DNA of 64,000 nt from Eledone cirrhosa (Eukaryota): NCBI GenBank assembly GCA_964016885.1, contig OZ024744.1, positions 115,816,001 to 115,880,000 on the forward strand, in the 5' to 3' direction. Position 1 is the stretch's first letter. The number at the start of each line of letters is the position of its first letter. Below, in pieces: positions 14,709-52,124 of this stretch. Both the position numbers and the translations under genes were made by a program. The notes beneath the pieces were generated by a model. The model saw only the letters and a program-made list of their open reading frames with translations. It searched no databases and had not been told where the DNA came from.

Positions 14709-14727
14709 ACCCACAGAAATATTATTT

Positions 14728-15962
14728 ATGTCTAAGACTAAAGTTCTAGTTTGTAGGAAGGAAAATAGGGCGCCGGTCCCATCCAGGAAATGGCCATGCT
14801 CAGTGTGTAGGAAAGGAGTAGGTAGAAACTCCATTTTATGTCCCAAATGCAAAGTATGGGTGCATAAAAGATGTAGTGGGATCACAGGTAAGCTAACTAA
14901 GAACATAGATTTTACATGTGGCCGGTGCTCTGGTGCAATAAGTAGCAGCAAGTTCCCACAGAATACTAGCTTATTCCATTGCACAGATGGTTCTATAGAA
15001 ATAGTGGACAGCTTCCGTTACCTTGGTGACAAAATCAGCAGTGGGGGAGGGTGCTCTGAAAGTACAGTAGCTAGAGTCAGAACGGGATGGAAAAAGTTCA
15101 GAGGTCTTATACCAGTATTGGCCGCTAAAGGGTTCTCCCTAAAAATAAAAGGCAGGCTGTATGATGCCTGCATACGAACAGCAATGTTACATGGCAGTGA
15201 GACCTGGGCATTGTGTGCAGAGGATATATGCAGACTGGAGAGGAACGAAGCTTGCATGCTCCGCTGGATGTGTAATAGTAATATACGTGAACGGCAAAGC
15301 ATAAACGATCTAAGGGAGAAATTAGGAATAAGAGGGATCAGATGTTGTTTACTCGAGAGAAGACTATGTTGGTATGGTCACGTGATGCGCATGAAAGACG
15401 ACAGCTGTATAACAAAGTGTAGGGCAATAAAAATAGACGGTAGCCACGGAGTAGGCAGACCCAGAAAAACCTGGGACGACTTGATAAATTCCGACCACAC
15501 ACACACTTACACCTCTCCAAGACAATGTCACTGGACCGAGATCTTTGGCGCTACGTAGTAATACAGAAGACCCGCCTTACCTAAGTACAAAGTGAAACCT
15601 ACTACAGTCAGTAGGCACCTCTAATAAAATACACCCCCGTCCCACTACCCCCACCCCATCCACACCACCCCTTTCAATGTAAAGTTATGTTGGTACCACA
15701 ACATCCAGCCCGAAACAAATGAGGTCTTGTAGGTGTCACGACAAATAAACACGCTGTAATTTGGCCGTGTAGGCAACACGGTAAAAACCTCCCAGTCCAC
15801 ACTGTAAACGTGGTTGGTGTTAGGAAGGGCATCCAGCCGTAGAAAACCCGCCAGACAGTCCTATGTGAGCAAGACAACCAATCTTGCCTCAAGTGGGAAA
15901 ACTCCCGTCCAAACCCATGCAAGCGTGGAAGATGGATGTTAAACGATGATGATGATGATGAT
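14728..15962 (+). mobile_element. 5'-truncated RTE LINE (C-terminal ORF with PHD-like finger, 3'UTR, (GAT)n tail)
   Basis: 276-aa ORF with FRYLG, LHGSETW, RLCWYGHV, GRPRKTW; absent from the paralogous site at 22635. Confidence 0.93.
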
Positions 15963-18474: not shown

Positions 18475-19600
18475 ACTTATGGCGAAACTCTCTGCAATGG
18501 GTGTGAAGGATAATCTTTTTAACTTGTTGAAGTCCTTCATTCTCAGTCGAAGAGAGGTAGTCACGGTTCTAGGACAGCATTCTTCACCATATGAGATGTC
18601 ATCTGGTGTACCACAGGGATCTGTTCTTGGTCCCCTTTTGTTTGTGGCATATATTAATGACATAGATGCCAACTTACAGAATGCCACGGTACTGAAATAT
18701 GCAGATGACATCAAGCTGTACCTTGAAATCAAAAGGACTGATCCTGAAATCTACAACTCTTTCCTACAATCAGACCTGGACACAATGCAGCAATGGATCA
18801 CAGACTGGGAACTGAAGCTGGCTGTGGACAAGTGTACCACCATGCATTTTGGGAGGAAAATCCTGCGTCCACATACTCCCTCCACAACACTGATATCAAG
18901 AAGTCCTCTTGTGAACGTGACCTGGGCATTACTGTCAGCAGCGATTTGCGTTGGACAAAGCACGTCTCTAAGATTGTCAAGAAGGCCAAGGGTGTCTTGG
19001 CATCACTCAGCAAGACCTTTGTTAGCCGCTCTCCAGCCATCTATTTAAAGCTGTATACAGCTATGGTACAACCACACTTCGAATTTGGATCATCAATCTG
19101 GAACCCCTATCTTGCTCAGAACATTGACCTCCTGGAAACTGTTCAGAGACGTGCAACCAAGCGCATACCCTCCATCAGACACCTACCTTACTCTGAACGC
19201 CTTGCTTCCCTGGGCATGGATTCATTGAAACTCTGACGTCTGGCAATGGACTTGGTAAACACCCATAAAGTTATTAACCATCTCGCCAACAACAACCCTG
19301 AGCACCTTTTTGATCTCCATGTGTCTAACACACGTGGACATGCCTACAAAATCAGAAAACAGCACAGCTCCCATGACTTTCGGAAACATTTTTTCCCGCT
19401 TAGAGTTGCTGAAGCATGGAACAAACTGCCTGCGTCAGTTGTTAGTTGCCGAGAGACTGCATCCTTTAAAACCCTCATGCTTTGCGAAATTTGCCAAAAC
19501 TACACCTGATGTACCCCTTCCATACACATGCACACATGTTTATATCATGACTCATGCACTGTTGATTTTCCTGACGTTTGTACATTACTCTATGTACCAC
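18475..19600 (+). mobile_element. 5'-truncated CR1-clade LINE (RT C-terminal half), frameshifted; its 3'UTR resumes at ~20545-20620
   Basis: SGVPQGSVLGPLLF, KYADD, ERDLG, VQRRATK, WNKLP. Confidence 0.93.
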
Positions 19601-20543
19601 CAAGTACCACCAGGTACGACCAATCTCTGGGAGGGCTCTGTAGAAACAGTAGACAGCTTCTGCTACCTAGGTGACCGAATTAGCAGTAGAGGTGGGTGTT
19701 CAGAAAGTACAATAACTAGGGTAAGAACGGGATGGAAGAAGTTCAGGGAACTACTGCCACTGCTAGCTGCAAAAGGCTTTTCCCTCAAAATGAAAGGCAG
19801 ACTGTATGATGCGTGTATCTGAACAGCAATGTTACATGGTAGTGAGACCTGGGCGCTGTCTGTAGATGATTTGCGCAGATTAGAAAGAAACGAAGCCTGC
19901 ATGCTCCGATGGATGTGTAATAGTAATATACGCGAACGACAAAGCATAAATGAATTGAGAGAGAGACTGAGCATAAGAGGAATCAAATGCTGTGTGCAGG
20001 AGAGGTGGTTGCGTTGGTATGGACATGTGATGCGTATGAAGGATGACAGCTGCATAAAAAGGTGCAGAGCACTAGAAGTCAATGGAAACCGTGGAGTGGG
20101 GAGACCCAAGAAGACCTGGGATGAGGTGATAAAATCCGACCTTACCCAATTACACCTCTCAAAGGCGATGACACACGAACGTGACCTCTGGCGTCACGCA
20201 GTAATACAGAGTACCCGACCTCCCATGGGTACAAGCTGAAGCATATAGACAATATTCCCCCACACCCTCCCACTGCAAGGTGGTCGTGGAGGTGCCACGG
20301 CAAAAAAGCACCCAGCCCACACTGTAAAGTGGACGTATAGGCGCCACGGAAAAAAAGCACCCAGCACTCACTGTAAATGAGGTTGGTGTTAGGAAGGGCA
20401 TCCAGCTGTAGAAATCAAGCCAGATCAGTTCCTGTATGAACAAGGCATGGTCAGCCGACCAGACACTGCCCACAACAGGACAACCCGTCTAACCCATGCT
20501 AGCATGGAAGAACGGACGTAAAACGGTGATGATGATGATGATG
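19600..20543 (+). mobile_element. 5'-truncated RTE inserted in the CR1 3'UTR
   Basis: FCYLGD, LHGSETW, WYGHV, GRPKKTW, (GAT)n tail; empty site at ~26330. Confidence 0.92.
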
Positions 20544-22616: not shown

Positions 22617-22634
22617 CCCACAGAAATATTATTT

Positions 22635-25207: not shown

Positions 25208-26405
25208 AGACTTATGGCGAAACTCTCTGCAATGGGTGTGAAGGATGATCTTTTTAACTTGTTGAAGTCCTTCATTCTCAGCCGAAAAGAGGTAGTCACG
25301 GTTCTAGGACAGCACTCTTCACCATATGAGATGTCATCTGGTGTACCACAGGGATCTATTCTTGGTCCCCTTTTGTTTGTGGCATATATTAATGACATAG
25401 ATGCCAACTTAAAGAATGCCACGGTACTGAAATATGCAGATGACATCAAGCTGTACCTTGAAATCAAAAGGTCAGATCCTGAAATCTACAACTCTTTCCT
25501 ACAATCAGACCTGGACACAATGCAGCAATGGATCACAGACTGGCAACTGAAGCTGGCTGTGGACAAGTGTACCACCATGCATTTTGGGAGGAAAAACCCA
25601 GCGTCCACATACTCCCTTCACAACACTGATATCAAGAAGTCCTCTTGTGAACGTGACCTGGGCATTACTGTCAGCAGCGATTTGCGTTGGACAAAGCATG
25701 TCTCCAAGATTGTCAAGAAGGCCAAGGGTGTCTTGGCATCACTCAGCAAGACCTTTGTTAGCCGCTCTCCAGCCATCTATTTAAAGCTGTATACAGCTAT
25801 GGTGCGACTACACTTGGAATTCGCATCATCAGTCTGGAACCCCTATCTTGCTCAGAACATTGACCTCCTGGAAACTGTTCAGAGACGTGCAACGAAGCGC
25901 ATACCCTCCATCAGACACCTACCATACTCTGAACGCCTTGCTTCCCTGGGCATGGATTCATTGAAGCTCCGACGTCTGGCAATGGGCTTGGTAAACACCC
26001 ACAAAGTTATTAACCATCTTGCCAACAACAACCCTGAACACCTTTTTGATATCCATGTGTCTAACACACGTGGACATGCTTACAAAATCAGAAAACAGCA
26101 CAGCTCCCATGATTTTCGGAAACATTTTTGCCCGCTTAGAGTTGCTGAAGCATAAAACAAACTGCCTGCGTCAGTTGTTACCTGCCGAGACACTGCATCC
26201 TTTAAAACCCTCATGCTTCCCGAAATTCGCCAAAACTACACCTGATATACCCCTTCCATACACATGCACACATGTGTGTATCATGACTCATACACTGTTC
26301 ATTTTCCTGACGTTTGTACATTACTCTATGTACTGTACATATACTTTTGATGAGTTGTGGTGCACCTGAGCACTGTACACAATATTTTCATTATTATATT
26401 ATTAT
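25208..26405 (+). mobile_element. 5'-truncated CR1 LINE, reading frame largely open
   Basis: ORF 24974-26155 (microsatellite-derived N-terminus fused to CR1 RT: GVPQGSILGP, YADD); (ATT)n tail. Confidence 0.93.
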
Positions 26406-33160: not shown

Positions 33161-35325
33161 AGAACAGTGCAAGTTTATTATAGTCTTTCAGGCCATAACA
33201 GAGGAGTTTAAGACATGATGTATATGGAAACTTCTGTACTCTGATGATCTACTCTTCATAGCAGAATCCATAGAGAAACTAGAGAAGAAGTTCTGTTGAA
33301 ACAGAATTTACAATCAAAAGGTTTTAGAGTAAAGTTAGCCAAAACTAAAGTGTTGGTAAGTAGGAGAGAAGATAGGACCCTGACCCCATCAGGGAAGTGG
33401 CCCTACTCAATATGAGGAGGTAGTAACTCTATATTATGTACACAATGCAAATCTTGTGTACACAAAGGTTGTAGTAGAATAGCAAGCAGATTAACAGGAA
33501 GGGAAGATTTTGTATGTAACAGATGTTTAGGGCTAATCAATGGGAAGAGTGTCAGTGATATAAATCTTTTTTAATCCCTGGAAGGATCCATAGAAGTAGT
33601 TGATAGCTTCTGCTACCCAGGTGATCTAATTAGCAGTGAGGGAGGATGCTCCAATTACATAATTGCTAGAATAAAGACAAGATGGAAAAAGTTTACGGAG
33701 CTACTACCTCAGTTGATAACAAAAGGTTTCTCCCTATGTACAAAATGATGATGCCTGGGTACAAAGTGTGATATTACATGGTAGTGAAACAAGGGCGGTG
33801 ACTGTAGAAGACATGTGGTGCTACATGGTAGTGAAACATGGGCAGTGACTGTAGAAGACATGTGGTGCTACATGGTAGTGAAACATGGGCAGTGACTGTG
33901 GAGGACATGTGGGGTTACATGGTAGTGAAACATGAACTGTGACTGTGGAGGATACGTGGTGCTACATGGTAGTGAAACATGGGCAGTGACTGTGGAGGAC
34001 ATGTGGTGCTACATGGTAGTGAAACATGAACTGTGACTGTGGAGGATACGTGGTGCTACATGGTAGTGAAACATGGGCAGTGACTGTGGAGGACATGTGG
34101 TGCTACATGGTAGTGAAACATGGACTGTGACTGTGGAGGCCACGTGGTGCTACATGGTAGTGAAACATGGGCAGTGACTGTGGAGGACATGTAGTGCTAC
34201 ATGGTAGTGAAACATGGGCTGTAACTATGGAGGACATGTGGTGCTACATGGTAGTGAAACATGGGCTGTAACTATGGAGGACATGTGGTGCTACATGGTA
34301 GTGAAACATGGGCAGTGACTGTGGAGGACATGTGGTGCTACATGGTAGTGAAACATGGGATGTGACTGTGGAGGACATGTGGTGCTACATGGTAGTGAAA
34401 CATGGGCTGTAACTATGGAGGACATGTGGTGCCTCATGGTAGTGAAACATGAGTTGTGACTGTGGAGGACACGTGGTGCTACATGGTAGTGAAACATGGG
34501 CTGTAACTGTGGAAGACATGTGGTGCTACATGGTAGTGAAACATGGGATGTGACTGTGGAGGACATGTGGTGCTACATGGTAGTGAAACATGGGCTGTAA
34601 CTGTGTAGGACATGTGGTGCTACGTGGTAGTGAAACATGGGCTGTAGCTGTGGAGGACATGTGGTGCTACATGGTAGTGAAACATGGACTGTGACTGTGG
34701 AGGACATATGGTGCTACATGGTAGTGAAACATGGGCTGTGACTGTGGAGGACATGTAGTGCTACATGGTAGTGAAACATGGGCTGTGACTGTGGAGGACA
34801 TATGGTGCTACATGGTAGTGAAACATGGGATGTGACTGTGGAGGACATGTGGTGCTACATGGTAGTGAAACATGGGCTGTAACTGTGTAGGACATGTGGT
34901 GCTACATGGTAGTGAAACATGGGCTGTAGCTGTGGAGGACATGTGTAGACTGGAGAGAAATGAAGCAACCATGCTCCGTTGGATGTTTAATCTAAATGTG
35001 AGAGAGAGGCAGAACTGGGACAAGTTGAGGGAGAAGCTGGGTTTAAGAGGAATCGGAGGTGGTGTGTAAGAGAGAAGACTGCTTTGATATGGATATGAGG
35101 TGTGTATGGATGGTGATTGTTGGGTGAAGAAGTGTCAGGAAATGCCAGTGGAAGGTAGCTACAGAAGAGGTAGACCAAGAAAGACCTGGTTGGAAATGGT
35201 GAGAACTGACCCCAAATCACTGAGACTCACACAAGAGATGACAAAAGAACAGTTGAGTGGAGAGATGCTGGAAAAGACTCATTCAACCAATGTGGGCATG
35301 GAAAAAACAGACGTAAAAACGATGG
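33161..35325 (+). mobile_element. Decayed RTE 3' half, interrupted by a self-derived 47-bp array
   Basis: Colinear RT C-terminal motifs on both sides of the array (..RLERNEATMLRWM, GRPRKTW) and a GACGTAAAA tail. Confidence 0.88.
33774..34945 (+). repeat. 47-bp minisatellite (~25 units) from the RTE LHGSETWA coding segment
   Basis: CTACATGGTAGTGAAACATGGGCTGTGACTGTGGAGGACATGTGGTG. Confidence 0.96.
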
Positions 35326-35382
35326 TGATGATGATGATGGTAATGATGATGGTGATAGCGGTGATGATGATGATGGTGATGG

Positions 35383-35423
<41 letters not shown>

Positions 35424-35430
35424 GTGGTGG

Positions 35431-35472
<42 letters not shown>

Positions 35473-35571
35473 CGACGATGATGACGATGATGATGATGAT
35501 GGTGGCGATGATGATGGTGATGATGACGATGGTGATGGTGATGATGATGATGATGGTGGTGATGATGATGA
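35320..35571. repeat. Expanded (GAT/GGT)n LINE tail microsatellite
   Basis: Follows the RTE 3' terminal motif. Confidence 0.95.
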
Positions 35572-35611
35572 CATATATACTTCTGTTAATGGAATATATA
35601 TATCACCATCA

Positions 35612-36095
35612 TGTTGAGTTGGTATGGACATGTGATGCATATGAAGAATGACAACTGCATAAAAAGGTGCAGAGCACTAAAAGTTGATGGAGTGGGGAGA
35701 CCCAAGAAGACCTGGGATGAGGTGATAAAGGCCGACCTTATCCAATTACACCTCTCAAAGGCGATGACACACGACCGTGACCTCTGGCGTCACACAGTAA
35801 TACAGAAGACCCGACCCCCCCATGGGTACAAGCCGAAGGTGAAGCATATTGACAATATGCCCCCACACCCTCCCACTGTAAAGTGGTCGTGGAGGTGCCA
35901 CGACAAAAAAAGCACCCAGCCCACACTGTAAATGAGGTTGGTGTTAGGAAGGGCATCCAGCTGTAGAAATCAAGCCAGAATCAGTTTCTGTATCAGCAAG
36001 ACATGGTCAGCCGACCTGACACTGCCCACAACAGGACAACCCGTCTAACCCATGCTAGCGTGGAAGAACGGACGTAAAACGGTGATGATGATTAT
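35612..36095 (+). mobile_element. 5'-truncated RTE 3' end
   Basis: WYGHV..GRPKKTW; 3'UTR like 20220-20540. Confidence 0.9.
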
Positions 36096-36279
36096 GATCA
36101 TTGTCATTTAATATCCAGTTTGTCAGTGAGTCTCATCTACCTCTACCGTGGCTTCGCTCCACTGGGATTACTATGTATATAATATGTGGGGGGCAGTGAA
36201 TTGACAGTAGTGGTGGAGTGTCAGACAAACTTGTCTATTGCAAGATTTATCTTTTTAATAATTTAAGTAATGTAACTAG

Positions 36280-37320
36280 TAGAGGTATATGGCCTAGTGG
36301 TAAGGGTGTTAGACTGGGTTGTGTGTTGTGTTCTTGAACAAAACACTTCATTTCACATTACTCCAGTATACTACAGTGGAGGTATGTGGTGGCCTAGTGG
36401 TAAGGGTGTTAGACTGGGTTGTGTGTTGTGTTCTTGAAAAAAACACTACATTTCACATTACTCCAGTATACTACAGTGGCGGTATGTGGTGGCCTAGTGG
36501 TAAGGGTGTTTGACCAGGTTGTATGTTGTGTTCTTGAACAAAACATTTCATTTCACATTACTCCAGTATACTACAGTGGAGGTATGTGGTGGCCTAGTGG
36601 TAAGGGTGTTAGACTGGATTGTGTGTTGTGTTCTTGGACAAAACACTTCACATTACTCCAGTATACTACAGTGGAGGTATGTGGTGGCCTAGTGCTAAGG
36701 GTGTTAGACTGACTTGTGTGTTGTATTCTTGAACAAAACACTTCATTTCATATTACACCAGTATACTACAGTGGAGGTATGTGGTGGCCTAGTGGTAAGG
36801 GTGTTAGACTGGGTTGTGTGTTGTGTTCTTGAACAAAACATTTTATTTCACATTACTCCATTATACTACAGTAGAGGTATGGAGAGGCCTAGTGGTAAGG
36901 GTGTTAGACTGGGTTGTGTGTTGTGTTCTTGAACAAGACACTTCATTTCACATTACTCCAGTATACTACAGTGGAAGCATATGGTGGCCTAGTGGTAAGG
37001 GTGTTTGACTGGTATGTGTGTTGTGTTCTTGAACAAAACACTTCATTTCACATTGCTCTAGTATACTACAGTAGAGGTATGTGGTGGCCTAGTGGTAAGG
37101 GTGTGAGACTGGGTTGTGTGTTGTGTTCTTTAACAAAACACTGCATTTCACATTTGTTTCAGTATACTTAACTGAAAAAAGATTACCATCACCAATAATT
37201 GGGGCTTTAACTCTGTGATGGACTGGTGCCCTATCCAGGGTTCCACTCTCAGTCATTTAACAACACTGAAAGCCGGATAAGTACCTGCCTGATGGGCCTT
37301 CTTGTGTTGAGACAGACGTT
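36280..37320 (+). repeat. 100-bp tandem array (9 units) of a tRNA-derived SINE 5'/core region, followed by one SINE 3' half (~37170-37320)
   Basis: GGCCTAGTGGTAAGGGTGTTAGACT at 36291, 36391, 36491 etc.; CORE-like TTGTGTTCTTGAACAAAACACTT. Confidence 0.85.
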
Positions 37321-37999
37321 AGAATTTTCTAAAACTCTCAATTCTTGAATAAATGTATTTCAAAATTCATTATTTGATTACGGAAATGTTCACAATGTGT
37401 GTTCTAGATGTTCTATCAACAAAACCACAAACTTATGAAATTAAGGTGTGGCTGGGCATTTCATTGATGTATATCTTTCACATAATTCTCAGGGAGATTC
37501 AGCATGTGTGACAATGATGACCAGTTGAATTATAGGTACATTCCATCTGGATACCAAATCTCACACAGACTTGGAGGTGAGGTTATGGTAAATGACATTT
37601 ACCCAAGATGCCACAGGACTTAGTGTGAATTGATGGGCGTTCCCCTTTGTCCCTAGGTAAGAGGCTGGTGTCTCATCTGGGATACCACAGACTGACGCCA
37701 TTACTGACTCCTTTGCTCCCACCCACATCATGGATGTTCTGGTAAATGTGGGGGTCACTGCTTCTGTAAGCAAACGGAATAAAAGTGTAAAATATTGGGA
37801 ATTATCAAGAAATTATTTTTTGCCAACCTCTGGCATTTGAGATGCTTGGAGGAGCTGGGTCACTGACAGTGAAGTTCTTGTCATTGTTAGGAGCTCGTCT
37901 TTACTGAGGTATCACATGATACTCTAGGTGAGGGTACTTAGTTGTTCCAGGACCTTAGCCTCGCCATCACCCAGCCTTACTGAGGTGAGGGTGCTTGGT

Positions 38000-38415
38000 T
38001 GTCACACACAGAACGGATCTGGCCATCGGCCGAGTCCATAGTGAAGATCGACCCGCCGCCTTCTTTTGGTCAGGAAGAGCAGGCAATGTGTTCCTCTGTC
38101 TGGTGGCAGTAGCAAAAGAGGTTGCATGGTGGACCAGGTTTAAAGGACTGAAGACAGACACTTTTCTCTTCGGCCAATCCCTCATCAACTTCTTCAAGTT
38201 TCACCTGGAAAGGAAGGTGAGGGTGGAGAGAGAAGTGCTGCCCTGCCCCCAGTACATTTGCTAAAAGGTGGATGAATGTGGCGAGAATGGCCCGTGTGAA
38301 TGGGTCTACTCTGACCATGTGCCTATAGGCTAGCTAACTTGAGGAGAGGGGTGCCCTTCCTGGATGCCCTCTAGTGTCGGCTGGTTCAGGATTGGTGGAG
38401 TACCTGAACTGACCC
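38000..38415 (+). mobile_element. Probable 3' end of an L1/Tx1-like LINE
   Basis: LVAVAKEVAWWTR..FFKFHLERKVRVERE resembles Tx1 ORF2 C-termini; followed by a (GTTGTTACT)n tail at 38416-38505. Confidence 0.45.
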
Positions 38416-38689
38416 TGTTGTTACTGTTGTTGTTGTTACTGTTGTTGTTACTGTTGTTGTTACTGTTGTTGTTACTGTTGTTGTTACTGTTGTTGTTACT
38501 GGTGTTGTATATTTGGTGGAACCTATAACTAAAATTAAGCTAAACTATAGTAATATAAGTATATAAAGTAATATAGGTATATACAATATAAACTACAGTT
38601 ATATATTATATAATATAAGCTATAGATGTATGTATAATATAGACTATAGGTATATATAATATAGACTATAGGTGTATATATAATATATA

Positions 38690-40445
38690 TGGAGGTTTTA
38701 AAGGATGCAGTCTCTCGACAGCTAATAACTGATGCAGGTAGTTTGTTCCATGGAGGTTTTAAAGGATGCAGTGTCTCGACAGCTAACAACTGATACAGGT
38801 AGTTTGTTCCATGGAGGTTTTAAAGGATGCAGTGTCTCGACAGCTAACAACTGATGCAGGTAGTCTGTTCCATGGAGGTTTTAAAGGATGCAGTGTCTCG
38901 ACAGCTAACAACTGATGCAGGTAGTCTGTTCCATGGAGGTTTTAAAGGATGCAGTGTCTCGACAGCTAACAACTGATGCAGGTAGTCTGTTCCATGGAGG
39001 TTTTAAAGGATGCAGTGTCTCGACAGCTAACAACTGATGCAGGTAGTCTGTTCCATGGAGGTTTTAAAGGATGCAGTGTCTTGACAGCTAACATCTGATG
39101 CAGGTAGTCTGTTCCATGGAGGTTTTAAAGGATGCAGTGTCTTGACAGCTAACAACTGATGCAGGTAGTCTGTTCCATGGAGGTTTTAAAGGATGCAGTG
39201 TCTCGACAGCTAACAACTGATGCAGGTAGTCTGTTCCATGGAGGTTTTAAAGGATGCAGTGTCTCGACAGCTAACAACTGATGCAGGTAGTCTGTTCCAT
39301 GGAGGTTTTAAAGGATGCAGTGTCTTGACAGCTAACATCTGATGCAGGTAGTCTGTTCCATGGAGGTTTTAAAGGATGCAGTGTCTTGACAGCTAACAAC
39401 TGATACAGGTAGTCTGTTCCATGGAGGTTTTAAAGGATGCAGTGTCTTGACAGCTAACAACTGATGCAGGTAGTCTGTTCCATGGAGGTTTTAAAGGATG
39501 CAGTGTCTTGACAGCTAACATCTGATGCAGGTAGTCTGTTCCATGGAGCTTTTAAAAGATGCAGTGTCTCGACAGCTAACAACTGATGCAGGTAGTCTGT
39601 TCCATGGAGCTTTTAAAAGATGCAGTGTCTCGACAGCTAACAACTGATGCAGGTAGTCTGTTCCATGGAGCTTTTAAAAGATGCAGTGTCTCGACAGCTA
39701 ACAACTGATGCAGGTAGTTTGTTCTATGGAGGTTTTAAAGGATGCAGTGTCTTGACAGCTAATAACTGATACAGGTAGTTTGTTCCATGGAGGTTTTAAA
39801 GGATGCAGTGTCTTGACAGCTAATAACTGATGCAGGTAGTCTGTTCCATGGAGGTTTTAAAGGATGCAGTGTCTTGACAGCTAACAACTGATACAGGTAG
39901 TTTGTTCTATGGAGGTTTTAAAGGATGCAGTATCTCGACAGCTAACAACTGATACAGGTAGTCTGTTCCATGGAGGTTTTAAAGGATGCAGCGTCTCGAC
40001 AGCTAACAACTGATACAGGTAGTCTGTTCCATGGAGGTTTTAAAGGATGCAGTGTCTCGACAGCTAATAACTGATACAGGTAGTTTGTTCTATGGAGGTT
40101 TTAAAGGATGCAGTGTCTTGACAGCTAATAACTGATGCAGGTAGTCTGTTCCATGGAGGTTTTAAAGGATGCAGTGTCTTGACAGCTAACAACTGATACA
40201 GGTAGTTTGTTCTATGGAGGTTTTAAAGGATGCAGTGTCTCGACAGCTAACAACTGATACAGGTAGTCTGTTCCATGGAGGTTTTAAAGGATGCAGTGTC
40301 CCGACAGCTGACAACTGATGTAGGTAGTTTGTTCCATGGAGGTTTTAAAGGATGCAGTGTCCCGACAGCTGACAACTGATGTAGGTAGTTTGTTCCATGC
40401 TTCAGCAACTCTGAGTGTGAAAAAATGTTTTCGAAAGTCATGAGA
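38690..40445 (-). repeat. 61-bp satellite (~28 units) from the CR1 3' coding end, with single-copy CR1 flank at 40400-40445
   Basis: Minus-strand unit encodes WNKLPASVVSCRDTASFKT, as in CR1 at ~19415-19478. Confidence 0.96.
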
Positions 40446-40804
40446 TTGACATGTCGACCAAGCTTAATTTTTGTAATCGGTTGTAAATAAAACTTGTAAA
40501 ATATTATAAAGTCTTGTAATATTTTTCTACAAAGCCTACAACTACTTTTTCTAACATTCATCTTTAATACTAACATACCTTTAATTCAACAGACATTCAC
40601 TTTAATACAAACATTCTTTTACTTCAACCAACATTCACTTTATGACCAACTTTGCCTCCCTCACTTAACAAACCTTACATTTCTCACTATAACAAATAAC
40701 AACAATAACTTTATATTCTTAATATTATGCCAACATGGCATAATATTATTTTTCTGTTAAAGTTGTATATATTATAAACTTTAGGTGTATATAATATATA
40801 CTAT

Positions 40805-40893
40805 CATTTTGCCTTTCATCCTTACGGGGTCGATAAAATAAAGTACCAGTAATGCACTGGGCAATTGCTGGCCTTGTGCCTAAAGTAGAAATA
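40805..40893 (+). mobile_element. SINE 3' fragment
   Basis: TTTGCCTTTCATCC..GGGTCGATAAAATAAAGTACCAGT..GGCCTTGTGCCTA; same family as 48990-49176. Confidence 0.85.
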
Positions 40894-40894
40894 A

Positions 40895-41046
40895 TTATCA
40901 TCATTGTTTAACACCTATTTTCCATCCTAGCATGGGTTAGATGGTTTGTCCCATTTAGAGGCAGGTTAGGTCAGGTGACCATATCTTGCTCATACAGAAA
41001 TGTTTCTGGCTATGTTTCTACAGTTGGATTCCCTTCCTAATGCCAA
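40895..41046 (-). mobile_element. RTE-family 3' tail abutting the 48-bp array
   Basis: TTTTCCATCCTAGCATGGGTTAGATGG..TTTCTACAGTTGGATTCCCTTCCTAATGCCAA matches the reverse complement of local RTE tails. Confidence 0.85.
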
Positions 41047-44000
41047 CCACTTTACAGTGTGTACTGGGTACTTTTTGTTGTGACACCTACATGACCACTT
41101 TACAGTGTGTACTGGGTACTTTTTGTTGTGACACCTACATGACCACTTTACAGTGTGTACTGGGTACTTTTTGTTGTGACACCTACATGACCACTTTACA
41201 GTGTGTACTGGGTACTTTTTGTTGTGACACCTACATGACCACTTTACAGTGTGTACTGGGTACTTTTTGTCGTGACACCTACATGACCACTTTACAGTGT
41301 GTACTGGGTACTTTTTGTCATGACACCTACATGACCACTTTACAGTGTGTACTGGGTACTTTTTGTTGTGACACCTACATGACCACTTTACAGTGTGTAC
41401 TGGGTACTTTTTGTTGTCACACCTACATGACCACTTTACAGTGTGTACTGGGTACTTTTTGTCATGACTCCTACATGACCACTTTACAGTGTGTACTGGG
41501 TACTTTTTGTTGTGACACCTATATGACCACTTTACAGTGTGTACTGGGTACTTTTTGTCATGACATCTACATGACCACTTTACAGTGTGTACTGGGTACT
41601 TTTTGTCATGAGACCTACATGACCACTTTACAGTGTGTACTGGGTACTTTTTGTTGTGACACCTACATGACCACTTTACAGTGTGTACTGGATACTTTTT
41701 GTCATGACACCTACATGACCACTTTACAGTGTGGACTGGGTACTTTTTGTCATGACACCTACATGACCACTTTACAGTGTGTACTGGGTACTTTTTGTTG
41801 TGACACCTACATGTCCACTTTACAGTGTGTACTGAGTAGTTTTTGCCGTGACACCTACATGACCACTTTACAGTGTGTACTGGGTACTTTTTGTCATGAC
41901 ATCTATATGACCACTTTACAGTGTGTACTGGGTACTTTTTGTCATGACATCTACATGACCACTTTACAGTGTGTACTGGGTATTTTTTGTCATGACACCT
42001 ACATGACCACTTTACAGTGTGTACTGGGTACTTTTTGTTGTGACACCTACATGACCACTTTACAGTGTGTACTGGGTACTTTTTGTCATGACACCTACAT
42101 GACCACTTTACAGTGTGGACTGGGTACTTTTTGTCATGACATCTACATGACCACTTTACAGTGTGTACTGGGTACTTTTTGTCATGACACCTACATGACC
42201 ACTTTACAGTGTGCACTGGGTACTTTTTGTCATGACATCTACATGACCACTTTACAGTGTGACTAGGTACTTTTTGTCATGACATCTACATGACCACTTT
42301 ACAGTGTGTACTGGGTACTTTTTGTCATGACACCTACATGACCACTTTACAGTGTGTACTGGGTATTTTTTGTCATGACACCTACATGACCACTTTACAG
42401 TGTGCACTGGGTACTTTTGTTATGACACCTACATGACCACTTTACAGTGTGTACTGGGTACTTTTTGTCATGACATCTACATGACCACTTTACAGTGTGT
42501 ACTGGGTACTTTTTGTTGTGACACCTACATGACCACTTTACAGTGTGTACTGGGTACTTTTTGTGAGACACCTACATGACCACTTTACAGTGTGGACTGG
42601 GTACTTTTTGTCATGACATCTACATGACCACTTTACAGTGTGTACTGGGTACTTTTTGTTGTGACACCTACATGACCACTTTACAGTGTGTACTGGGTAC
42701 TTTTTGTTGTGACACCTACATGACCACTTTACAGTGTGTACTGGGTACTTTTTGTTGTGTCACCTATATGACCACTTTACAGTGTGTACTGGGTAATTTT
42801 TGTTGTGACACCTACATGACCACTTTACAGTGTGTACTGGGTACTTTTTGTTGTGACACCTACATGACCACTTTACAGTGTGTACTGGGTACTTTTTGTT
42901 GTGACACCTACATGACCACTTTACAGTGTGTTCTGGGTACTTTTTGTTGTGACACCCACATGACCACTTTACCGTGTGCACTGGGTAATTTTTTGTTGTG
43001 ACACCTACATGACCACTTTACAGTGTGTACTGGGTACTTTTTGTTGTGACACCTACATGACCACTTTACAGTGTGTACTGGGTACTTTTTGTCGTGACAC
43101 CTACATGACCACTTTACAGTGTGTACTGGGTACTTTTTGTCGTGACACCTACATGACCACTTTACCGTGTGTACTGGGTAATTTTTGTTGTGAAACCTAC
43201 ATGACCACTTTACCGTGTGTACTGGGTAATTTTTGTCGTGACACCTTCATGACCACTTTACAGTGTGTACTGGGTACTTTTTGTTGTGACACCTACATGA
43301 CCACTTTACAGTGTGTACTGGGTACTTTTTGTCATGACACCTACATGACCACTTTACAGTGTGTACTGGGTACTTTTTGTCATGACATCTACATGACCAC
43401 TTTACAGTGTGTACTGGGTACTTTTTGTCATGACACCTACATGACCACTTTACAGTGTGCACTGGGTACTTTTTGTCATGACATCTACATGACCACTTTA
43501 CAGTGTGACTAGGTACTTTTTGTCATGACATCTACATGACCACTTTACAGTGTGTACTGGGTACTTTTTGTCATGACACCTACATGACCACTTTACAGTG
43601 TGTACTGGGTATTTTTTGTCATGACACCTATATGACCACTTTACAGTGTGCACTGGGTACTTTTTGTCATGACATCTACATGACCACTTTACAGTGTGAC
43701 TAGGTACTTTTTGTCATGACATCTACATGACCACTTTACAGTGTGTACTGGGTACTTTTTGTCATGACACCTACATGACCACTTTACAGTGTGTACTGGG
43801 TATTTTTTGTCATGACACCTACATGACCACTTTACAGTGTGCACTGGGTACTTTTGTTATGACACCTACATGACCACTTTACAGTGTGTACTGGGTACTT
43901 TTTGTCATGACATCTACATGACCACTTTACAGTGTGTACTGGGTACTTTTTGTTGTGACACCTACATGACCACTTTACAGTGTGTACTGGGTACTTTTTG

Positions 44001-44974
44001 TGAGACACCTACATGACCACTTTACAGTGTGTACTGGGTACTTTTTGTCATGACATCTACATGACCACTTTACAGTGTGTACTGGGTACTTTTTGTCGTG
44101 ACATCTACATGACCACTTTACCGTGTGTACTGGGTAATTTTTGTTGTGACACCTACATGACCACTTTACCGTGTGTACTGGGTAATTTTTGTCGTGACAC
44201 CTTCATGACCACTTTACAGTGTGTACTGGGTACTTTTTGTTGTGAGACCTACATGACTACTTTACAGTGTGTACTGGGTACTTTTTGTTGTGACACCTAC
44301 ATGACCACTTTACCGTGTGTACTGGGTAATTTTTGTTGTGACACCTACATGACCACTTTACCGTGTGTACTGGGTAATTTTTGTCGTGACACCTTCATGA
44401 CCACTTTACAGTGTGTACTGGGTACTTTTTGTTGTGACACCTACATGACTACTTTACAGTGTGTACTGGGTACTTTTTGTTGTGACACCTACATGACCAC
44501 TTTACAGTGTGTACTGGGTACTTTTTGTTGTGACACCCACATGACCACTTTACAGTGTGTACTGGGTACTTTTTGTCGTGACACCTACATGACCACTTTA
44601 CAGTGTGTACTGGGTACTTTTTGTCGTGACATCTACATGACCACTTTACAGTGTGTACTGGGTACTTTTTGTCGTGACACCTACATGACCACTTTACAGT
44701 GTGTACTGGGTACTTTTTGTCGTGACACCTACATGACCACTTTACAGTGTGTACTGGGTACTTTTTGTCGTGACATCTACATGACCACTTTACAGTGTGT
44801 ACTGGGTACCTTTTGATGTGACATCTACATGACCACTTTACAGTGTGTACTGGGTACTTTTTGTTGTGACACCTACATGACCACTTTACAGTGTGTACTG
44901 GGTACTTTTTGTTGTGACACCTACATGACCAATTTACAGTGTATACTGGGTACTTTTTGTTGTGACACCTACAT
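41047..44974 (-). repeat. 48-bp satellite (~82 units) from the RTE 3'UTR
   Basis: CCACTTTACAGTGTGTACTGGGTACTTTTTGTTGTGACACCTACATGA; homologous to 20270-20375 and 35875-35935 on the opposite strand. Confidence 0.96.
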
Positions 44975-45140
44975 AAAACATACAAATCAACACATTCAAC
45001 AACATCCATACCATACAGACATACATATATACCTAGTTGATGTTGTGTAAATTCCAATTAGAGAGTCTTGTAACTATGTTAGAAACTGACTCTCTCTCTA
45101 TTGGTAAAAAAATTTATGAAATTATAATATACATACATAT

Positions 45141-48100
45141 ATGATGATGATGGCTGCCCCTTCGTTATCGAGTATGGCCATTGCAAGAAAAAAAAAAAAA
45201 AAATTTTTTTATATATATATACATATATATATACATATATATATATATACATACACATACACATACATATATATTAATAACAATAATAATAATAATAACA
45301 ACAATAATAATAACGACAACAACAACAATAATAATATACATATATATATACACAAACACGCACACACATAAACATATCTATACACACACACACACACGAT
45401 AGCAACTAACAGCGCTGTGATCGAATGTGGCTTTTTAGCCCAGCCAATGATCTAAAATGTCTTGCACAGAGTCGGCAACCAAAACATTCACTGGGAATAG
45501 CTGGCTGTGGTTGGAGTTCATGTACTTTTGCATGTCGCTTGAGCCCTCCTGCTGATTTACATTCTCTACCACATGTTTGGCAAGCATGATGAGTAGCATC
45601 TCCAACAGCAGCCTGGTAGTCAATCACTGGTCTCAGTTTATGACTGCGAAGATGACTTTCGAGTCCAGCTTTGCTTAGGCAGAGTCTCGCACAGACGCTG
45701 CATGTCAGCACCATAGGAGGACCCTCGCCGTCTGGAAGTGCAACAGCAATGCCCTTCCTCACATCCCGCTTTACTTTCTCGTATGCGATTCGAGATGCCT
45801 CAAAGGCAACTTTCCCTCATATACAGTCTTTCTCCATTTATTACGATCAGCAGCAATATTCTCCCATGTATCAACAGAGATGTTAGCATCTTTCAAAGAG
45901 GCTTTCAAGGAATCCTTATACCTCTTTTTTGGTTTATGTGGCGGTTGTTTTCCTTTAACTAACTCTCCATAAAAGAGTTGTTTTGGTATTCTAGAATCCT
46001 TCATCCTGGCAAGGTGACCACTCCAACGGAGTCGTTGCTTAAGCACAAGAGCTTCTATACTGTCACACATAGAGCTTTCCAAAATCTCGACATCACTGAT
46101 GTGGTCCCTCCAGTGAACGCCGTGGATCCGTCTGAGACACATCTGATGGAAACGCTCCAATTGCTTAAGGTGGCGTCGATATGTGACCCAGGTCTCGCAG
46201 GCATAAAGAAGACAAGAGAGTACACATGCCCTGTACACCTTTACCTTTGTCCTCCTGCATATGTCTCGCCGACCCCAGAGTTGCCTTTCTAGCTTTCCGA
46301 AAGCATCACTTGCTTTCCTAATCCTAAGTGAGATTTCACTGTCAAGGTTGCCGTATCGATTGACAGTGCTTCCCAGGTAGACAAACTGATCAACCACTCC
46401 AAGTCGTTTGCCATACACATAGATGTTTGGTTCAGTGTACTGCTTACCAGGGGCAGGTTGGTACATGACGACGGTTTTCTTGAGACTGACAGTCAATCCT
46501 AGGGCAGTGCAAGCATCAGAAAATGCATTCAAAATGTGCTGCATATCACTCTCTGTGTTCGCTATAAGATCGCAATCATCTGCATACAAGAGGTCTCTTA
46601 TGACTGATGTAAATACTTTTGTCTTCGCAGCAAAGCTCCTGATGTTAAATATGCTGCCTAAGGTCCGATATCGGATGTAAACACCATGCTCGCAATTTCT
46701 GAATGCAATATAGAAAACCATTGCAAAGTATATGGCAAACAGGGTCGGTGCTGGAATATCCACCTGTTTCACTCCATTTTTTACTGAGATAGGCTCCAAC
46801 ATGTTACCTCCGACATTAGCCCAAGCCTTCATGTTGTCATGGAAAGACCTAACCAAAGCAAGGAACTTATCAGGGCAACCAAGTTTCTGGAGAACCTTCC
46901 ATAATGCATTTCTGTTAACAGTATTGAAAGCTTTTGTCAGATCGACAAAAACCTGATACAGATCCAAACCTTGTTCCATGCACTTCTCCTGGAGCTGTCT
47001 AGCTGAGAAGATCATGTCAATAGTGACACGTCCAGCACGAAAACCAGATTGACTTTCAGGAAGAACACAATCTGCAATGTGTGTCAGCAGACGGTCCAGA
47101 AGCACCCTACATAAAACTTTCCCTACGACAGAAAGCAATGGCATACCTCTGTAGTTCCCACAATCATTCCTGTTACCGTTTCCCTTGTACAAGACCACCA
47201 TTACTGCATCTCTCTAGTTCTCAGGTACGGATTCATTAGCCCATATCCTGCCAAACAAAGAGTGAAGATGTTGCAGGAGTCTCTCACCATATTGTAGGAG
47301 CTCAGCATGTATGCCATCCATACCTGGAGACCTTCCACTGTTCAGCTTCGAGATAGCCACTGCAACCTCCACAAGCATCGTAGGTTCTGCGAGAGCTACT
47401 TTCACAGGACTTTCTGGAATGAGATTGAGGAAATCTTTATTGACGACATACGGCTGATTCAAAAGATCATCAAAGTGCTCTCGCCACCTTCATAGAATTC
47501 CTTGCGAGTCACGAAGAAGTTCTCTGCTATCCCTGCTGCGAAGCGGTGTCACCAGAGAAGAAGACGGCCCATAAACTTCACGCAAGAGACTGTACAACAG
47601 CTTTGTGTTGTTGGAATCTGACGCAGTTTGTATCTCACCAGCCTTCTCACTCCACCACTGATCCTTCATCTGAGAAAGACTCCGCCTAACACGTGATTTC
47701 AAATCCTTGAGTTCCTCATGCAATGTATTCCTCTCCTGTGGTTTTGCCGTCAATTAGCGTGACAGTGCACGCCTCTTATCAGCCAACAAGTCTTCTATAT
47801 GTACATCATTCTCATTAAACCAGTCCTGATGTTTTCTCTGCACCAATCCCAGAACACGCCTGCCTACATCATAAACCGACTTTTTAAGGGTCGGCCAATC
47901 CTCACCAAGATCTGCATCTCTTCTTGCAATGTTTCTCTTCACATTTTTATCCTTAAGACGAGCAGCATTCAATCTTTTGGGCAGGGCAACACCAGGAGCC
48001 TGGATTTTACGTTTAGTGATTAGTTTCACTTTTGCGCATACCAGGCGGTGGTCCGTACAGCACTCAGCTCTATGAAGAGCACGAACACACTGCACATCCT

Positions 48101-48860
48101 GTCTGTCACGCATCCTGACTAGGACGTAGTCCAAAAGATGCCATTCCTTAGATGCAGGATGCATCCATGTGGTCTTGAATTTGTTCTTTTGTTGGAACAT
48201 GGTGTTGGTACCACACAGATCCAGCTCCTCACACATCTGCAGCAGGAGCATACCATTGTTGTTACACTTTCCTACCCCATTATTACATTCCATGTGTTAA
48301 AATCCCTACCCACTCTAGCATTAAAGTCACCAAGCACGATGACTTTGTCTGCCTGAGGGATATTTCTTAAAATACCTTTCAAGGCATGGTAAAAGGACAC
48401 TTTTTCTTCATCGACAGAATTCATAGTTGGAGCATACACATTAACCAGGGTTGCATATCTTCCTTTGTCCAGCGGAATTCTCATGGACATAAGACGCTCA
48501 CTAATCCCTACTGGGAATTCTTCTAATTTATTCACAAGTACAGTCTTAACAGCAAATCCTACCCCAGCCTCTCTTCTGGTTCCTTCATCTCTTCCTTTCC
48601 AGAAGAATGTATATTCTCCACACAATTCTGTAAGATGACCATCTCCAACTAACCTCGTCTCAGATAAAGCCACGATGTCAAGATCGTAACGTCGAAGCTC
48701 CTTTGCAACAAGAGCGGTCCTTCGTTCAGGATGCTCCATGGAATCCCTGTCAAGCAGTGTCCGTACGTTCCAGCAGCCAAGAGTAAATGCCTTGTTTGGC
48801 TCTATTACAATGGCACGATGACGAGCGGGCCCAGGCTGTGATAACCTGGGGCCCCTGCCC
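45141..48860 (-). mobile_element. Near-full-length RTE (BovB/RTE-1-like) LINE, decayed, with three C2H2 zinc fingers at the C-terminus
   Basis: WNVRTL, ALSETR, YAPT, GDFNARVG, TDH, NYRG, ESQSGFR, LLYADD, FVYLGS, RWSGH; tail CTCGATAACGAAGGGGCAGC(CAT)n; microsatellite block 45187-45400 in the 3'UTR. Confidence 0.95.
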
Positions 48861-48989
48861 TTATTGCCAATTATCTTTTTTGTTCCAGAACCTAAATTGC
48901 CAATTATCTCTTTTATATTGTTCTGGAACATCATTGAATTGGGAAAAAAAAGAAAAAAAAGTAATAATAATAGTAACAATAATAATAAT

Positions 48990-49176
48990 TGTTTCTACGT
49001 TAGGCACAAGGCCAGCAATTACCCAGTACATTACTGGTACTTTATTTTATCGACCCTGTAAGGATGAAAGGCAAAGTTAACCTCGGCAGGATTTGAACTC
49101 AGAATGGCAAGGGCCGTAACTCTATACGTCAAAGCATGGCGTCCGACCCTCTCCCAATACTGCCAATCCACCGCCC
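48990..49176 (-). mobile_element. tRNA-derived SINE, full length
   Basis: Minus strand GGCGGTGGATTGGCAG (A-box-like) .. GAGTTCAAATCC (B box) .. CTTTGCCTTTCATCC; inserted in (AAT)n. Confidence 0.88.
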
Positions 49177-49188
49177 TACAATAGTAAC

Positions 49189-49258
<70 letters not shown>

Positions 49259-49526
49259 TTTTCTTTATTAACCACAAGGGTTCACATAAAGTGACGAATA
49301 TTTTTAAAGTGAGGAAAGACTGTGCACTGAACCAATCCCATTCTCTGAGTGACAGTAGCTATAACCCGAAAAGAAGAAAAGATCAACATCATCGGTAACT
49401 ACTGAGCCGTAGGTTTTATGTCGGAGTTAACCCAGTTTCCTGAGATGCCTTCTCCTAGAAGAATACCCTGACAAGGGCTAGGGGTTCTTCACTCCCAGTG
49501 GTTTAACTGCGCGATCGAGCATCCAT

Positions 49527-49725
49527 ATGTATGTATATATGTATATACATACATATATACATACATATATACATACATATATACATACATATACATACAT
49601 ACATATATACATATATAGATATATACACACATATATACATACATATATACATACATATATACATAGATACATATATACATATACACACATATATACATAC
49701 ATATATGCATACATAAATACACATA
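49527..49725. repeat. (TACA/TA)n microsatellite
   Basis: Direct inspection. Confidence 0.9.
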
Positions 49726-49809
49726 GATTAACTCTAAATTATAATAAAAGACACTACCTGTGGTTGTCAAATCATTTTGAGAATAATCAAGATTTCACAT
49801 TTTTAAGCT

Positions 49810-51680
49810 GGTGTTTGGAACATAACTTAACAAAAGTTCTTACATAAAATTATGATGGAAGGTTTTTAGATAAATATAAACACTTTAACATAAAGAGTTT
49901 TGTATGATAGAACTGGGGGTGTTTGGAACATAACTTAACAAAAGTTCTTACATAAAATTATGATGGAAGGTTTTTAGATAAATATAAACACTTTAACATA
50001 AACAGTTTTGTATGATAGAACTGGGGGTGTTTGGAACATAACTTAACAAAAGTTCTTACATAAAATTATGATGGAAGGTTTTTAGATAAATATAAACACT
50101 TTAACATAAACAGTTTTGTATGATAGAACTGGGGGTGTTTGGAACATAACTTAACAAAAGTTCTTACATAAAATTATGTTGGAAGGTTTTTAGATAAATA
50201 TAAACACTTTAACATAAACAGTTTTGTATGATAGAACTGGGGTGTTTGGAACATAACTTAACAAAAGTTCTTACATAAAATTATGATGGAAGGTTTTTAG
50301 ATAAATATAAACACTTTAACATAAATAGTTTTGTATGATAGAACTGGGGGTGTTTGGAACATAACTTAACAAAAGTTCTTACATAAAATTATGATGGAAG
50401 GTTTTTAGATAAATATAAACACTTTAACATAAACAGTTTTGTATGATAGAACTGGGGGTGTTTGGAACATAACTTAACAAAAGTTCTTACATAAAATTAT
50501 GATGGAAGGTTTTTAGATAAATATAAACACTTTAACATAAACAGTTTTGTATGATAGAACTGGGGGTGTTTGGAACATAACTTAACAAAAGTTCTTACAT
50601 AAAATTATGTTGGAAGGTTTTTAGATAAATATAAACACTTTAACATAAACAGTTTTGTATGATAGAACTGGGGGTGTTTGGAACATAACTTAACAAAAGT
50701 TCTTACATAAAATTATGATGGAAGGTTTTTAGATAAATATAAACACTTTAACATAAATAGTTTTGTATGATAGAACTGGGGGTGTTTGGAACATAACTTA
50801 ACAAAAGTTCTTACATAAAATTATGATGGAAGGTTTTTAGATAAATATAAACACTTTAACATAAACAGTTTTGTATGATAGAACTGGGGGTGTTTGGAAC
50901 ATAACTTAACAAAAGTTCTTACATAAAATTATGATGGAAGGTTTTTAGATAAATATAAACACTTTAACATAAACAGTTTTGTATGATAGAACTGGGGGTG
51001 TTTGGAACATAACTTAACAAAAGTTCTTACATAAAATTATGATGGAAGGTTTTTAGATAAATATAAACACTTTAACATAAATAGTTTTGTATGATAGAAC
51101 TGGGGGTGTTTGGAACATAACTTAACAAAAGTTCTTACATAAAATTATGATGGAAGGTTTTTAGATAAATATAAACACTTTAGCATAAATAGTTTTGTAT
51201 GATAGAACTGGGGGTGTTTGGAACATAACTTAACAAAAGTTCTTACATAAAATTATGATGGAAGGTTTTTAGATAAATATAAACACTTTAGCATAAATAG
51301 TTTTGTATGATAGAACTGGGGGTGTTTGGAACATAACTTAACAAAAGTTCTTACATAAAATTATGATGGAAGGTTTTTAGATAAATATAAACACTTTAAC
51401 ATAAATAGTTTTGTATGATAGAACTGGGGGTGTTTGGAACATAACTTAACAAAAGTTCTTACATAAAATTATGATGGAAGGTTTTTAGATAAATATAAAC
51501 ACTTTAACATAAATAGTTTTGTATGATAGAACTGGGGGTGTTTGGAACATAACTTAACAAAAGTTCTTACATAAAATTATGATGGAAGGTTTTTAGATAA
51601 ATATAAACACTTTAGCATAAATAGTTTTGTATGATAGAACCAGGGGGGTTCGGAACATAACTTAACAAAGGTTCTTAAGC
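49810..51680. repeat. 108-bp AT-rich satellite, ~17 highly homogeneous units
   Basis: GTTTGGAACATAACTT at 49813, 49921, 50029 etc. Confidence 0.97.
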
Positions 51681-52124
51681 ATATTCCCACACTCTCACTC
51701 CCACACCCACCCAGAAACAAACATACGCCCCCCCCCCCCCCCGCAAAAAAAAATACAACAACACCACGGCCACACACTCACACCCACAACCAAACCCACC
51801 ACAACCCCACACACTGTCACACCCCCAGGCCGCCACACACTATCACACCCCATACCCTACATCCCCACACACCCCAACAATCACCCACACTCTATCCTCC
51901 CCACACTCACCTACACTTTATCTCATGCTCTAATGCACTCACATCTTAATTACTAAATTGTCATAAGTTCCACTAATTAGATAACATACTGTATCAACTA
52001 TCAGAAGACATGCTTTATTTTTCCTGGTTCCTTCATCACTTTCTTAGCCGTAACCACTCAACGAGAAAATAAATGTTGTGAGTTAGGCTGTCTTCTGCTA
52101 TTGAGAAATACTTACTGATGGACA

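What the first reader, a model, noticed from the sequence alone, without database searches (positions are those of the whole stretch)
33774..51680. Satellite nursery: consecutive arrays each amplified in place from a slice of a different mobile element
Seen: within 18 kb, arrays of 47 bp (RTE ORF), 100 bp (SINE head), 61 bp (CR1 ORF end) and 48 bp (RTE 3'UTR) each run directly into single-copy parent sequence. A 108-bp array has a probable MITE parent. Single-unit RTE and CR1 parents lie elsewhere in this window. TE-derived satellites are known in general. Inference: several independent births from unrelated templates at one locus point to a sequence-agnostic local amplification process (microhomology-seeded slippage or microcircle rolling-circle reinsertion), not an element-specific one. 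This is the strongest candidate for an undescribed process here.
Basis: partly seen in the sequence, partly recalled or inferred. Interest (0 to 1): 0.75.

Follow-up and report, generated by a model that had tools for sequence, protein, structure and literature searches.

The report
Minisatellites invading old transposon copies
Five short-unit tandem repeats here are slices of jumping genes, but the same repeats sit inside many other copies of those genes, mostly toward chromosome ends, so most were likely copied in from other sites by DNA repair rather than born at this spot.

Summary
The five arrays are real and transposon-derived, but this is not a nursery. Every unit recurs in the same register at other loci. 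The surrounding 5 Mb is about half tandem array. The 48-bp array grew from a two-unit repeat native to the LINE tail. The 100-, 61-, 108- and probably 47-bp arrays look imported into older parent copies:
- Derived 100-bp units 8% apart sit in SINE hosts 35% apart.
- 63 arrays exit into an old-type CR1-like end through a young-type junction, and 0 through the old type's own junction.
- The window's 47-bp array shares a 280-base conversion-like tract with an otherwise 73%-identical copy 0.8 Mb away.
Arrays favour contig ends (8 of 11 copies near ends against 0 of 13 far). Likely route: rare birth at a microhomology, spread by ectopic gene conversion, then local expansion. Closest known: squamate SINE satellites and Drosophila Rsp-like spread. 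Earlier unreviewed notes of this scan reached a similar reading on other DNA of this genome. Raw reads were not tested.

The parts
33248..33774 (+). Decayed RTE-like LINE ORF, host on the left of the 47-bp array
   Evidence: 73% identical over 519 columns to the left flank of L012
33775..34945 (+). 47-bp array, 24.9 units; first unit starts parent-type (A), later units carry the shared derived junction base (G)
34946..35225 (+). LINE right flank, conversion-like tract shared with L012 (G000:C28, 115.06 Mb)
   Evidence: 3 mismatches in 280 bases, then 13 mismatches and 1 gap in the next 46 columns inside continuing LINE homology
36290..37154 (+). 100-bp array, 8.7 units, from a SINE head with the B-box region deleted; majority unit equals the majority of the other arrays
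37155..37320 (+). Old SINE body (host), best other copies 72-80% identical
38689..40399 (-). 61-bp array, 28 units, slice of a CR1-like ORF end bounded by CATG direct repeats; 3' UTR of the host absent
40400..40445 (-). 46 bases of CR1-like ORF upstream of the array
40897..41045 (-). 3' end of an RTE-like tail (host of the 48-bp array)
41046..44974 (-). 48-bp array, 82 units, expansion of a short repeat native to the tail; far end is not parent sequence
49728..49809 (+). Left end of a TTAA-bounded MITE-like element (host)
49810..51677 (+). 108-bp array, 17.3 units, GGTG-bounded internal slice of the MITE-like element; does not return to the element's right end
14722..15555 (+). Single-unit RTE-like parent ORF (others at 19601-20218 and 29290-29957)
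19369..19473 (+). Single-unit, old-type CR1-like parent slice (others at 26105-26209 on + and 62215-62318 on -)
20271..20377 (+). RTE-like tail that already holds 2.2 units of the 48/49-bp repeat (another, 2.0 units, at 20922-21016)

Best explanation
These arrays belong to multi-locus minisatellite families cut from a SINE, two LINEs and a MITE-like element, and most likely reached this spot by ectopic recombination that copies array units into older parent copies in chromosome-end regions. Step 1 (inferred): a slice bounded by a 4-5 base direct repeat is duplicated rarely, in one or a few copies. Step 2 (chimeric products shown, pathway inferred): a break in another parent copy is repaired on an array as template, and re-annealing in a shifted register leaves foreign units, or only a foreign junction, between the host's own ends. 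Step 3 (length variation shown, cause inferred): each array grows and homogenises in place. The 48-bp array skips steps 1-2: its two-unit seed is part of the LINE tail. No function is implied.
For: 100 bp: five independent SINE insertions with an intact head lead into deletion-bearing units (6 of 19 fetched stretches, two a duplicated pair). Five host tails differ by 25-43% (mean 35%), inner units between 9 SINE-hosted loci by 8.2%; hosts do not group (5 changes of 5, shuffled mean 4.8; AU p 0.044). Of 315 exact junction matches, the 100 listed are 3 on C17 and 97 on C28 from 115.0 Mb.

61 bp: 63 exact matches for young-type junction plus old-type exit, 0 for old-type junction plus old-type exit. 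25 of 30 fetched have an old-type 3' UTR; the junction site is young-type in 138 of 152 inner units; last units show six mosaic states. L329 is old-type on both flanks around 47 young-type units; L078 has the host variant in only the last of 21 units.

47 bp: shared derived junction base with parent-type first unit in 11 of 11; tract shared with L012; a unit variant shared with C28 neighbours and 0 in the 5 scored arrays on other contigs.

108 bp: inner units 8.6% apart, host flanks about 31% (10 loci, gappy alignment).

Position: arrays in 8 of 11 CR1-like copies within 25 Mb of a contig end against 0 of 13 farther (P 2e-4; 5 truncated copies of 29 dropped); RTE-like 5 of 11 against 0 of 18 (P 0.004); 47-bp junction 0 of 19 far; 0 of 63 farther than 30 Mb.
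Against: 47 bp: units are not clearly younger than flanks (0.05-0.11 from the array majority against 0.11 for flanks). The flank tree needs 7 changes but well-supported branches force only 1, so one carrier lineage is not excluded.

61 bp: dimer L227 has a minority variant in both units, as an in-place duplication would. L359 holds 11 inner units with the old-type junction. The old/young labels are crude: the two 5' markers read old then young in 11 of 28 hosts, so intermediate subfamilies exist. The window's own 61-bp host is too short to type.

Loci found with array queries are the best 38-40 of 1,800-4,100 candidates, which inflates unit similarity. Nearby hits are not independent. The AU test is marginal and involves long branches. 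Seven of 19 stretches have 100-bp arrays with no SINE end on either side, or only a fragment, which homology with a parent copy does not explain. Raw reads, recombination maps and circles were not examined.
Confidence: 0.68

Rival explanations
1. Repeated independent births: the same microhomology-bounded slice is duplicated afresh in many copies, more often in distal domains, with no traffic between loci.
For: Direct repeats bound the slices. Young single copies and arrays share the same 61-bp sequence; dimer L227 fits an in-place duplication. TE-internal hotspots are reported in human (PMC3389668, section 3.3 read).
Against: Old-type copies have the same CATG pair yet give 0 exact old-junction exits against 63 foreign-junction exits. 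The 100-bp unit has a deletion, a 3-base duplication and a junction absent from the parent consensus, and follows intact heads. The 47-bp junction base is shared across loci.
Confidence: 0.12
2. Carried in: subfamilies that already held a short array transposed, and arrays then grew in place.
For: True for the 48-bp array: two-unit tails in the window, 24 of 24 other loci with 3-34+ units, many ending inside the array, 6 of 38 hits far from ends. Not excluded for 47 bp. Known in oyster (PMC7492417, search listing only).
Against: Parent copies are common in interiors but arrays and dimers are not (0 of 13, 0 of 18, 0 of 19, 0 of 63). SINE hosts do not group. Crossover points vary.
Confidence: 0.12
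3. Arrays spread as extrachromosomal circles that integrate by homology or microhomology; the products resemble gene conversion.
For: 100-bp arrays without SINE ends start and stop at varied unit positions, and two abut unrelated arrays. Proposed for Rsp-like (PMC7403614, passages read).
Against: The 280-base flank tract shared with L012 and dimers where only the junction site is foreign (L352) fit short conversion tracts better. Confinement of the 100-bp family mainly to one 20-Mb region favours proximity.
Confidence: 0.06
4. One reading: a locus-specific process made five new arrays here from local templates.
For: Five arrays in 18 kb, P 0.03 uncorrected. The 108-bp array has private variants, so it was homogenised here.
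Against: All five recur elsewhere in register; similar clusters in 2 of 20 neighbouring tiles.
Confidence: 0.02

Closest known systems
SINE-derived satellites (sSat1-3) of squamates, PMC10702118 (read: abstract, passages, snake section and Discussion; supplements not read)
   Same: Arrays of a SINE slice with a terminal unit running into the SINE; many loci share one unit; units 89% alike against 64% for the SINE; subtelomeric preference.
   Different: The sections read invoke duplication and concerted evolution and never use 'gene conversion' (0 occurrences). Here host/unit chimeras are counted directly, and the pattern spans a SINE, two LINEs and a MITE-like element.
Rsp-like spread into 1.688 clusters on the Drosophila X, PMC7403614 (passages read)
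   Same: A derived repeat seeds new loci where a homologous repeat already lies; shared junctions; interlocus conversion or circles proposed; regional spread.
   Different: There the landing sites are clusters of an unrelated satellite reached through a hybrid repeat. Here they are single dispersed copies of the unit's own parent element.
TE-derived tandem repeats of the human genome, PMC3389668 (abstract and sections 3.3-3.4 read)
   Same: Minisatellites cut from TE slices, some between short direct repeats, some from repeats already in the element.
   Different: It reports mostly two-unit repeats, local expansion and no obvious genomic hotspots; here there is a strong end bias and traffic between loci.
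Helentron-carried satellite-like arrays of oyster, PMC7492417 (search listing and start of abstract only)
   Same: Short arrays dispersed inside mobile elements; matches the 48-bp case.
   Different: Carried by transposition, whereas the 100- and 61-bp arrays sit in hosts older than their units.

Membership tests
TE-derived minisatellite | Head-to-tail array whose unit aligns to a dispersed element | tested here: met
TE-derived minisatellite | Array continuous with the parent on at least one side | tested here: met
   5 of 5 on one side, 2 of 5 on both
SINE-derived satellite (sSat type) | One unit shared by many loci, units more alike than the SINEs | tested here: met
   8.2% against 35% (hosts) and 20% (same slice in single copies)
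SINE-derived satellite (sSat type) | Subtelomeric preference | tested here: inconclusive
   Bias toward contig ends at the 25-30 Mb scale; window is 20.6 Mb from the contig end; telomeres not located
tRNA-derived SINE parent | tRNA-like head with A and B boxes | tested here: inconclusive
   Box-like motifs visible in single copies (box identity recalled); no Rfam tRNA match on the head itself in 5 loci
RTE and CR1 clades of LINEs | Endonuclease and reverse transcriptase ORF | tested here: met
   RVT_1 and Exo_endo_phos_2 in in-window parents
RTE and CR1 clades of LINEs | Placement in a reverse transcriptase tree | not tested
TE-carried arrays (Helentron or SVA type) | Array-bearing hosts form a subfamily and are dispersed like the parent | tested here: not met
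   Not met for 100 bp and 61 bp; fits 48 bp; open for 47 bp
Interlocus-conversion spread (Rsp-like type) | Shared derived junction at sites where homologous sequence pre-existed | tested here: met
Interlocus-conversion spread (Rsp-like type) | Empty orthologous site in relatives; units on extrachromosomal circles | not testable with these tools
   No relatives held; no run held half the words
Locus-specific nursery | Junctions unique to the locus and excess over neighbours | tested here: not met

The most novel reading that the evidence does not exclude
Homing minisatellites: enzyme-free selfish repeats that use the dispersed copies of their own parent transposon as landing pads. A junction born once converts empty copies one way, whatever their age or subfamily, wherever recombination is high, and so turns SINE, LINE and MITE families into satellite families across chromosome ends and small chromosomes.
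Probability: 0.35. Interest if true: 0.75.

Novelty: new variant of a known kind. Interest (0 to 1): 0.5.

Why it matters
An array flanked by its parent element is usually read as born in place; here that anatomy is shown to arise also by import. Old and young LINE subfamilies act as natural markers, so the route by which satellites reach new loci becomes countable (63 foreign-junction exits against 0 native) and crossover points can be mapped. It offers a mechanism for the unexplained between-locus uniformity of SINE-derived satellites in snakes. It also predicts that array state of TE copies tracks recombination rate in this genome.

Tried and rejected
Locus-specific nursery: rejected. Assembly artefact: unlikely from unit heterogeneity and recurrence with locus-private variants, but not tested on reads: the run search gave only shares of 0.07 and reduced-representation runs, so no reads were laid. 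Unit-versus-flank age test for the 47-bp family: no clear signal. Flank trees for the 47-bp family: star-like, inconclusive. Rfam on the SINE head: no match. Matching tile arrays to parents in the fetched DNA: 19 of 38 tile arrays had no hit, so many arrays of the region have no identified TE parent; the library was only 593 kb and its hits include remnants of arrays. Additional interior tiles from C1, C2 and C4 were not obtained, so the interior baseline rests on C3 and C28. Eight literature searches returned no listing whose title or abstract start describes this in cephalopods or describes array import into the parent element's copies; one search returned 0 papers. The library lacks most subscription journals. 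Older mouse and Alu minisatellite papers were seen only as references in PMC9659126 (passages). PMC8327921 (passages) added only the subtelomeric location of human VNTRs.
Full report
Setting. The window is G000:C28:115,816,001-115,880,000 in a 3.0-Gb assembly; C28 is 136.5 Mb. The repeat content looks like an octopod's; that label is recalled and echoed by earlier notes, not tested.

Observation. TRF finds all five arrays. Each aligns to a dispersed element and is bounded by a short direct repeat (TGTG, CATG, GGTG). Only the 47-bp and 100-bp arrays are enclosed by their parent; the 61-, 48- and 108-bp arrays touch it on one side. The parent of the 48-bp array is not single-unit: two tails in the window hold about two units.

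Is this place special? Arrays were counted with period at least 25, at least 4 copies, at least 80% matches. Twenty 10-kb tiles from C28 114-119 Mb held 20 arrays covering 101,837 of 200,000 bases. Twenty tiles along C3 held 7 arrays, 14,006 bases, 10,000 of them in the tile at 2 Mb. On C28 the eight tiles from 50 to 99 Mb held none. Twenty-one tiles at 5 Mb of other contigs held 24 arrays, 23,430 bases. Blind tiles contained the window's own families: 61 bp x164, 48 bp x209, x59, x10 and x8, 100 bp twice. The five-array cluster has P 0.03 uncorrected against the local rate. The window is an ordinary piece of an array-rich distal domain.

Were the arrays born here? 47 bp: 9 of 9 other fetched loci carry the array in register; an exact junction-plus-exit pattern has 20 matches including the window's. 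61 bp: 29 of 29 other loci, 3 to 27+ units. 48 bp: 24 of 24. 108 bp: 14 of 14 fetched stretches, mostly on C27 and C28. 100 bp: 19 of 19 stretches; 315 exact junction matches, of which the 100 listed lie on C17 (3) and C28 from 115.0 Mb (97). Array-led searches score only the best 38-40 candidates, so these show recurrence, not frequency.

Were they carried by transposition? Flank-only queries give the frequency. RTE-like: 5 of 29 copies have the array, 5 of 11 near ends and 0 of 18 far. CR1-like: 8 of 29; after dropping 5 copies lacking the whole slice, 8 of 11 near and 0 of 13 far. None of 29 SINE-tail hits shows tandem 100-bp units directly upstream. About 60% of the large contigs lies more than 25 Mb from an end, yet 0 of 19 placed 47-bp junctions do, dimers included. 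Clustered hits are not independent, so the P values overstate. Only the 48-bp family behaves as carried: native seed, and 6 of 38 hits far from ends.

Evidence for import. 100 bp: the unit differs from the parent by a deletion of the B-box region, a 3-base duplication, a new junction and substitutions. Five independent insertions show an intact, diverged head followed by these derived units; a sixth has its own different deletion. Host tails are 25-43% apart and do not group (5 hosts, 26 single copies; L306 and 3 of 29 tail hits left out; AU p 0.044), while inner units are 8.2% apart and the window's majority unit equals the overall majority. 61 bp: old and young subfamilies differ at the last bases of the slice. 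In-place duplication in an old copy would give an old-type junction. Exact patterns gave 63 young-junction and 0 old-junction arrays exiting into an old-type end. In 30 fetched, 25 have an old-type 3' UTR, 2 young, 3 unclassified; 138 of 152 inner units have the young junction site, 11 the old (all in L359), 3 unclassified; inner and last units are mosaics. L329 is old on both flanks around 47 young-type units. 47 bp: the window's right flank matches L012 at 277 of 280 bases, then falls to background within continuing homology, while the left flanks are 73% alike. That is the shape of a conversion tract. 108 bp: units 8.6% apart in hosts about 31% apart (rough).

Evidence against or limiting. 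The 47-bp units are not clearly younger than their flanks and its trees cannot exclude one lineage. Dimer L227 fits an in-place birth. Subfamily markers are few and partly discordant. A swap of flanks rather than of arrays would give some of the same chimeras, though it is also ectopic recombination. Some 100-bp arrays have no SINE at either end. The window's 61-bp and 108-bp arrays are assigned by family membership, not by their own chimeric marks. Reads were not available.

Mechanism. Shown: multi-locus families, end bias, host/unit chimeras, variable lengths. [quoted passage not shown] A link to high crossover rates near ends and on small chromosomes is inferred, not measured. Circles remain possible.

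Comparison and novelty. TE-derived minisatellites are known (PMC3389668; review PMC9659126). Squamate SINE satellites show the same anatomy, uniform units and subtelomeric bias. Rsp-like shows spread into pre-existing homologous sites. What is added is marker-based evidence that arrays enter single old copies of their own parent, across several element classes in one genome. Unread supplements of PMC10702118 may already show such chimeras. My reading was entered before the look-up; five unreviewed notes there say similar things about other DNA of this genome and are not counted as support. Verdict: new variant of a known kind; interest 0.5.

Noticed in passing
window 13748-19597 against 21411-26333: Recent local duplication (95-99% identical blocks) whose copies differ in array length: 60-bp unit 2 against 6 copies, 37-bp unit 20.7 against 16.7. 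Shows in-place length change after duplication.
   Followed up: partly
window 1-4941, 52124-61913, 62828-63998: Two unrelated 39-bp arrays; the second is interrupted by a CR1-like fragment (about 61920-62827) and recurs in tile L199 at C28 116.0 Mb. No TE parent found.
   Followed up: partly
L005, L007, L020, L031, L040, L019: Single RTE-like copies carry several different arrays (31, 44, 52, 115 bp) besides the 47-bp one; L019 has a 61-bp array beside a single-unit RTE slice.
   Followed up: no
L303 and L301 (C28 117.24 and 116.20 Mb): 100-bp arrays abut other repeats directly (a 64/65-bp array with a short overlap; RTE-derived sequence), suggesting template switching or deletion between arrays.
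   Followed up: no
tiles L204, L207, L311, L326, L328; L168, L192: Further recurrent families of 72/73 bp and 64/65 bp appear in blind tiles on several contigs.
   Followed up: no
window 14722-15555: The RTE-like ORF carries a PHD-finger match after the reverse transcriptase region (PF00628, E 3e-6).
   Followed up: no
window 45560-48800 (minus strand): Near-full-length LINE with endonuclease- and reverse-transcriptase-like frames broken by a few stops; holds no array.
   Followed up: partly
window about 9150-12500 and 30650-33170: Two decayed LTR-retrotransposon-like stretches, judged by eye; not analysed.
   Followed up: no
L292 and L293 (C28 124.49 and 135.44 Mb); L103 and L104: Duplicated loci about 11-12 Mb apart in opposite orientation with different array lengths (52 against 23 hits; 7 against 6 units).
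   Followed up: no
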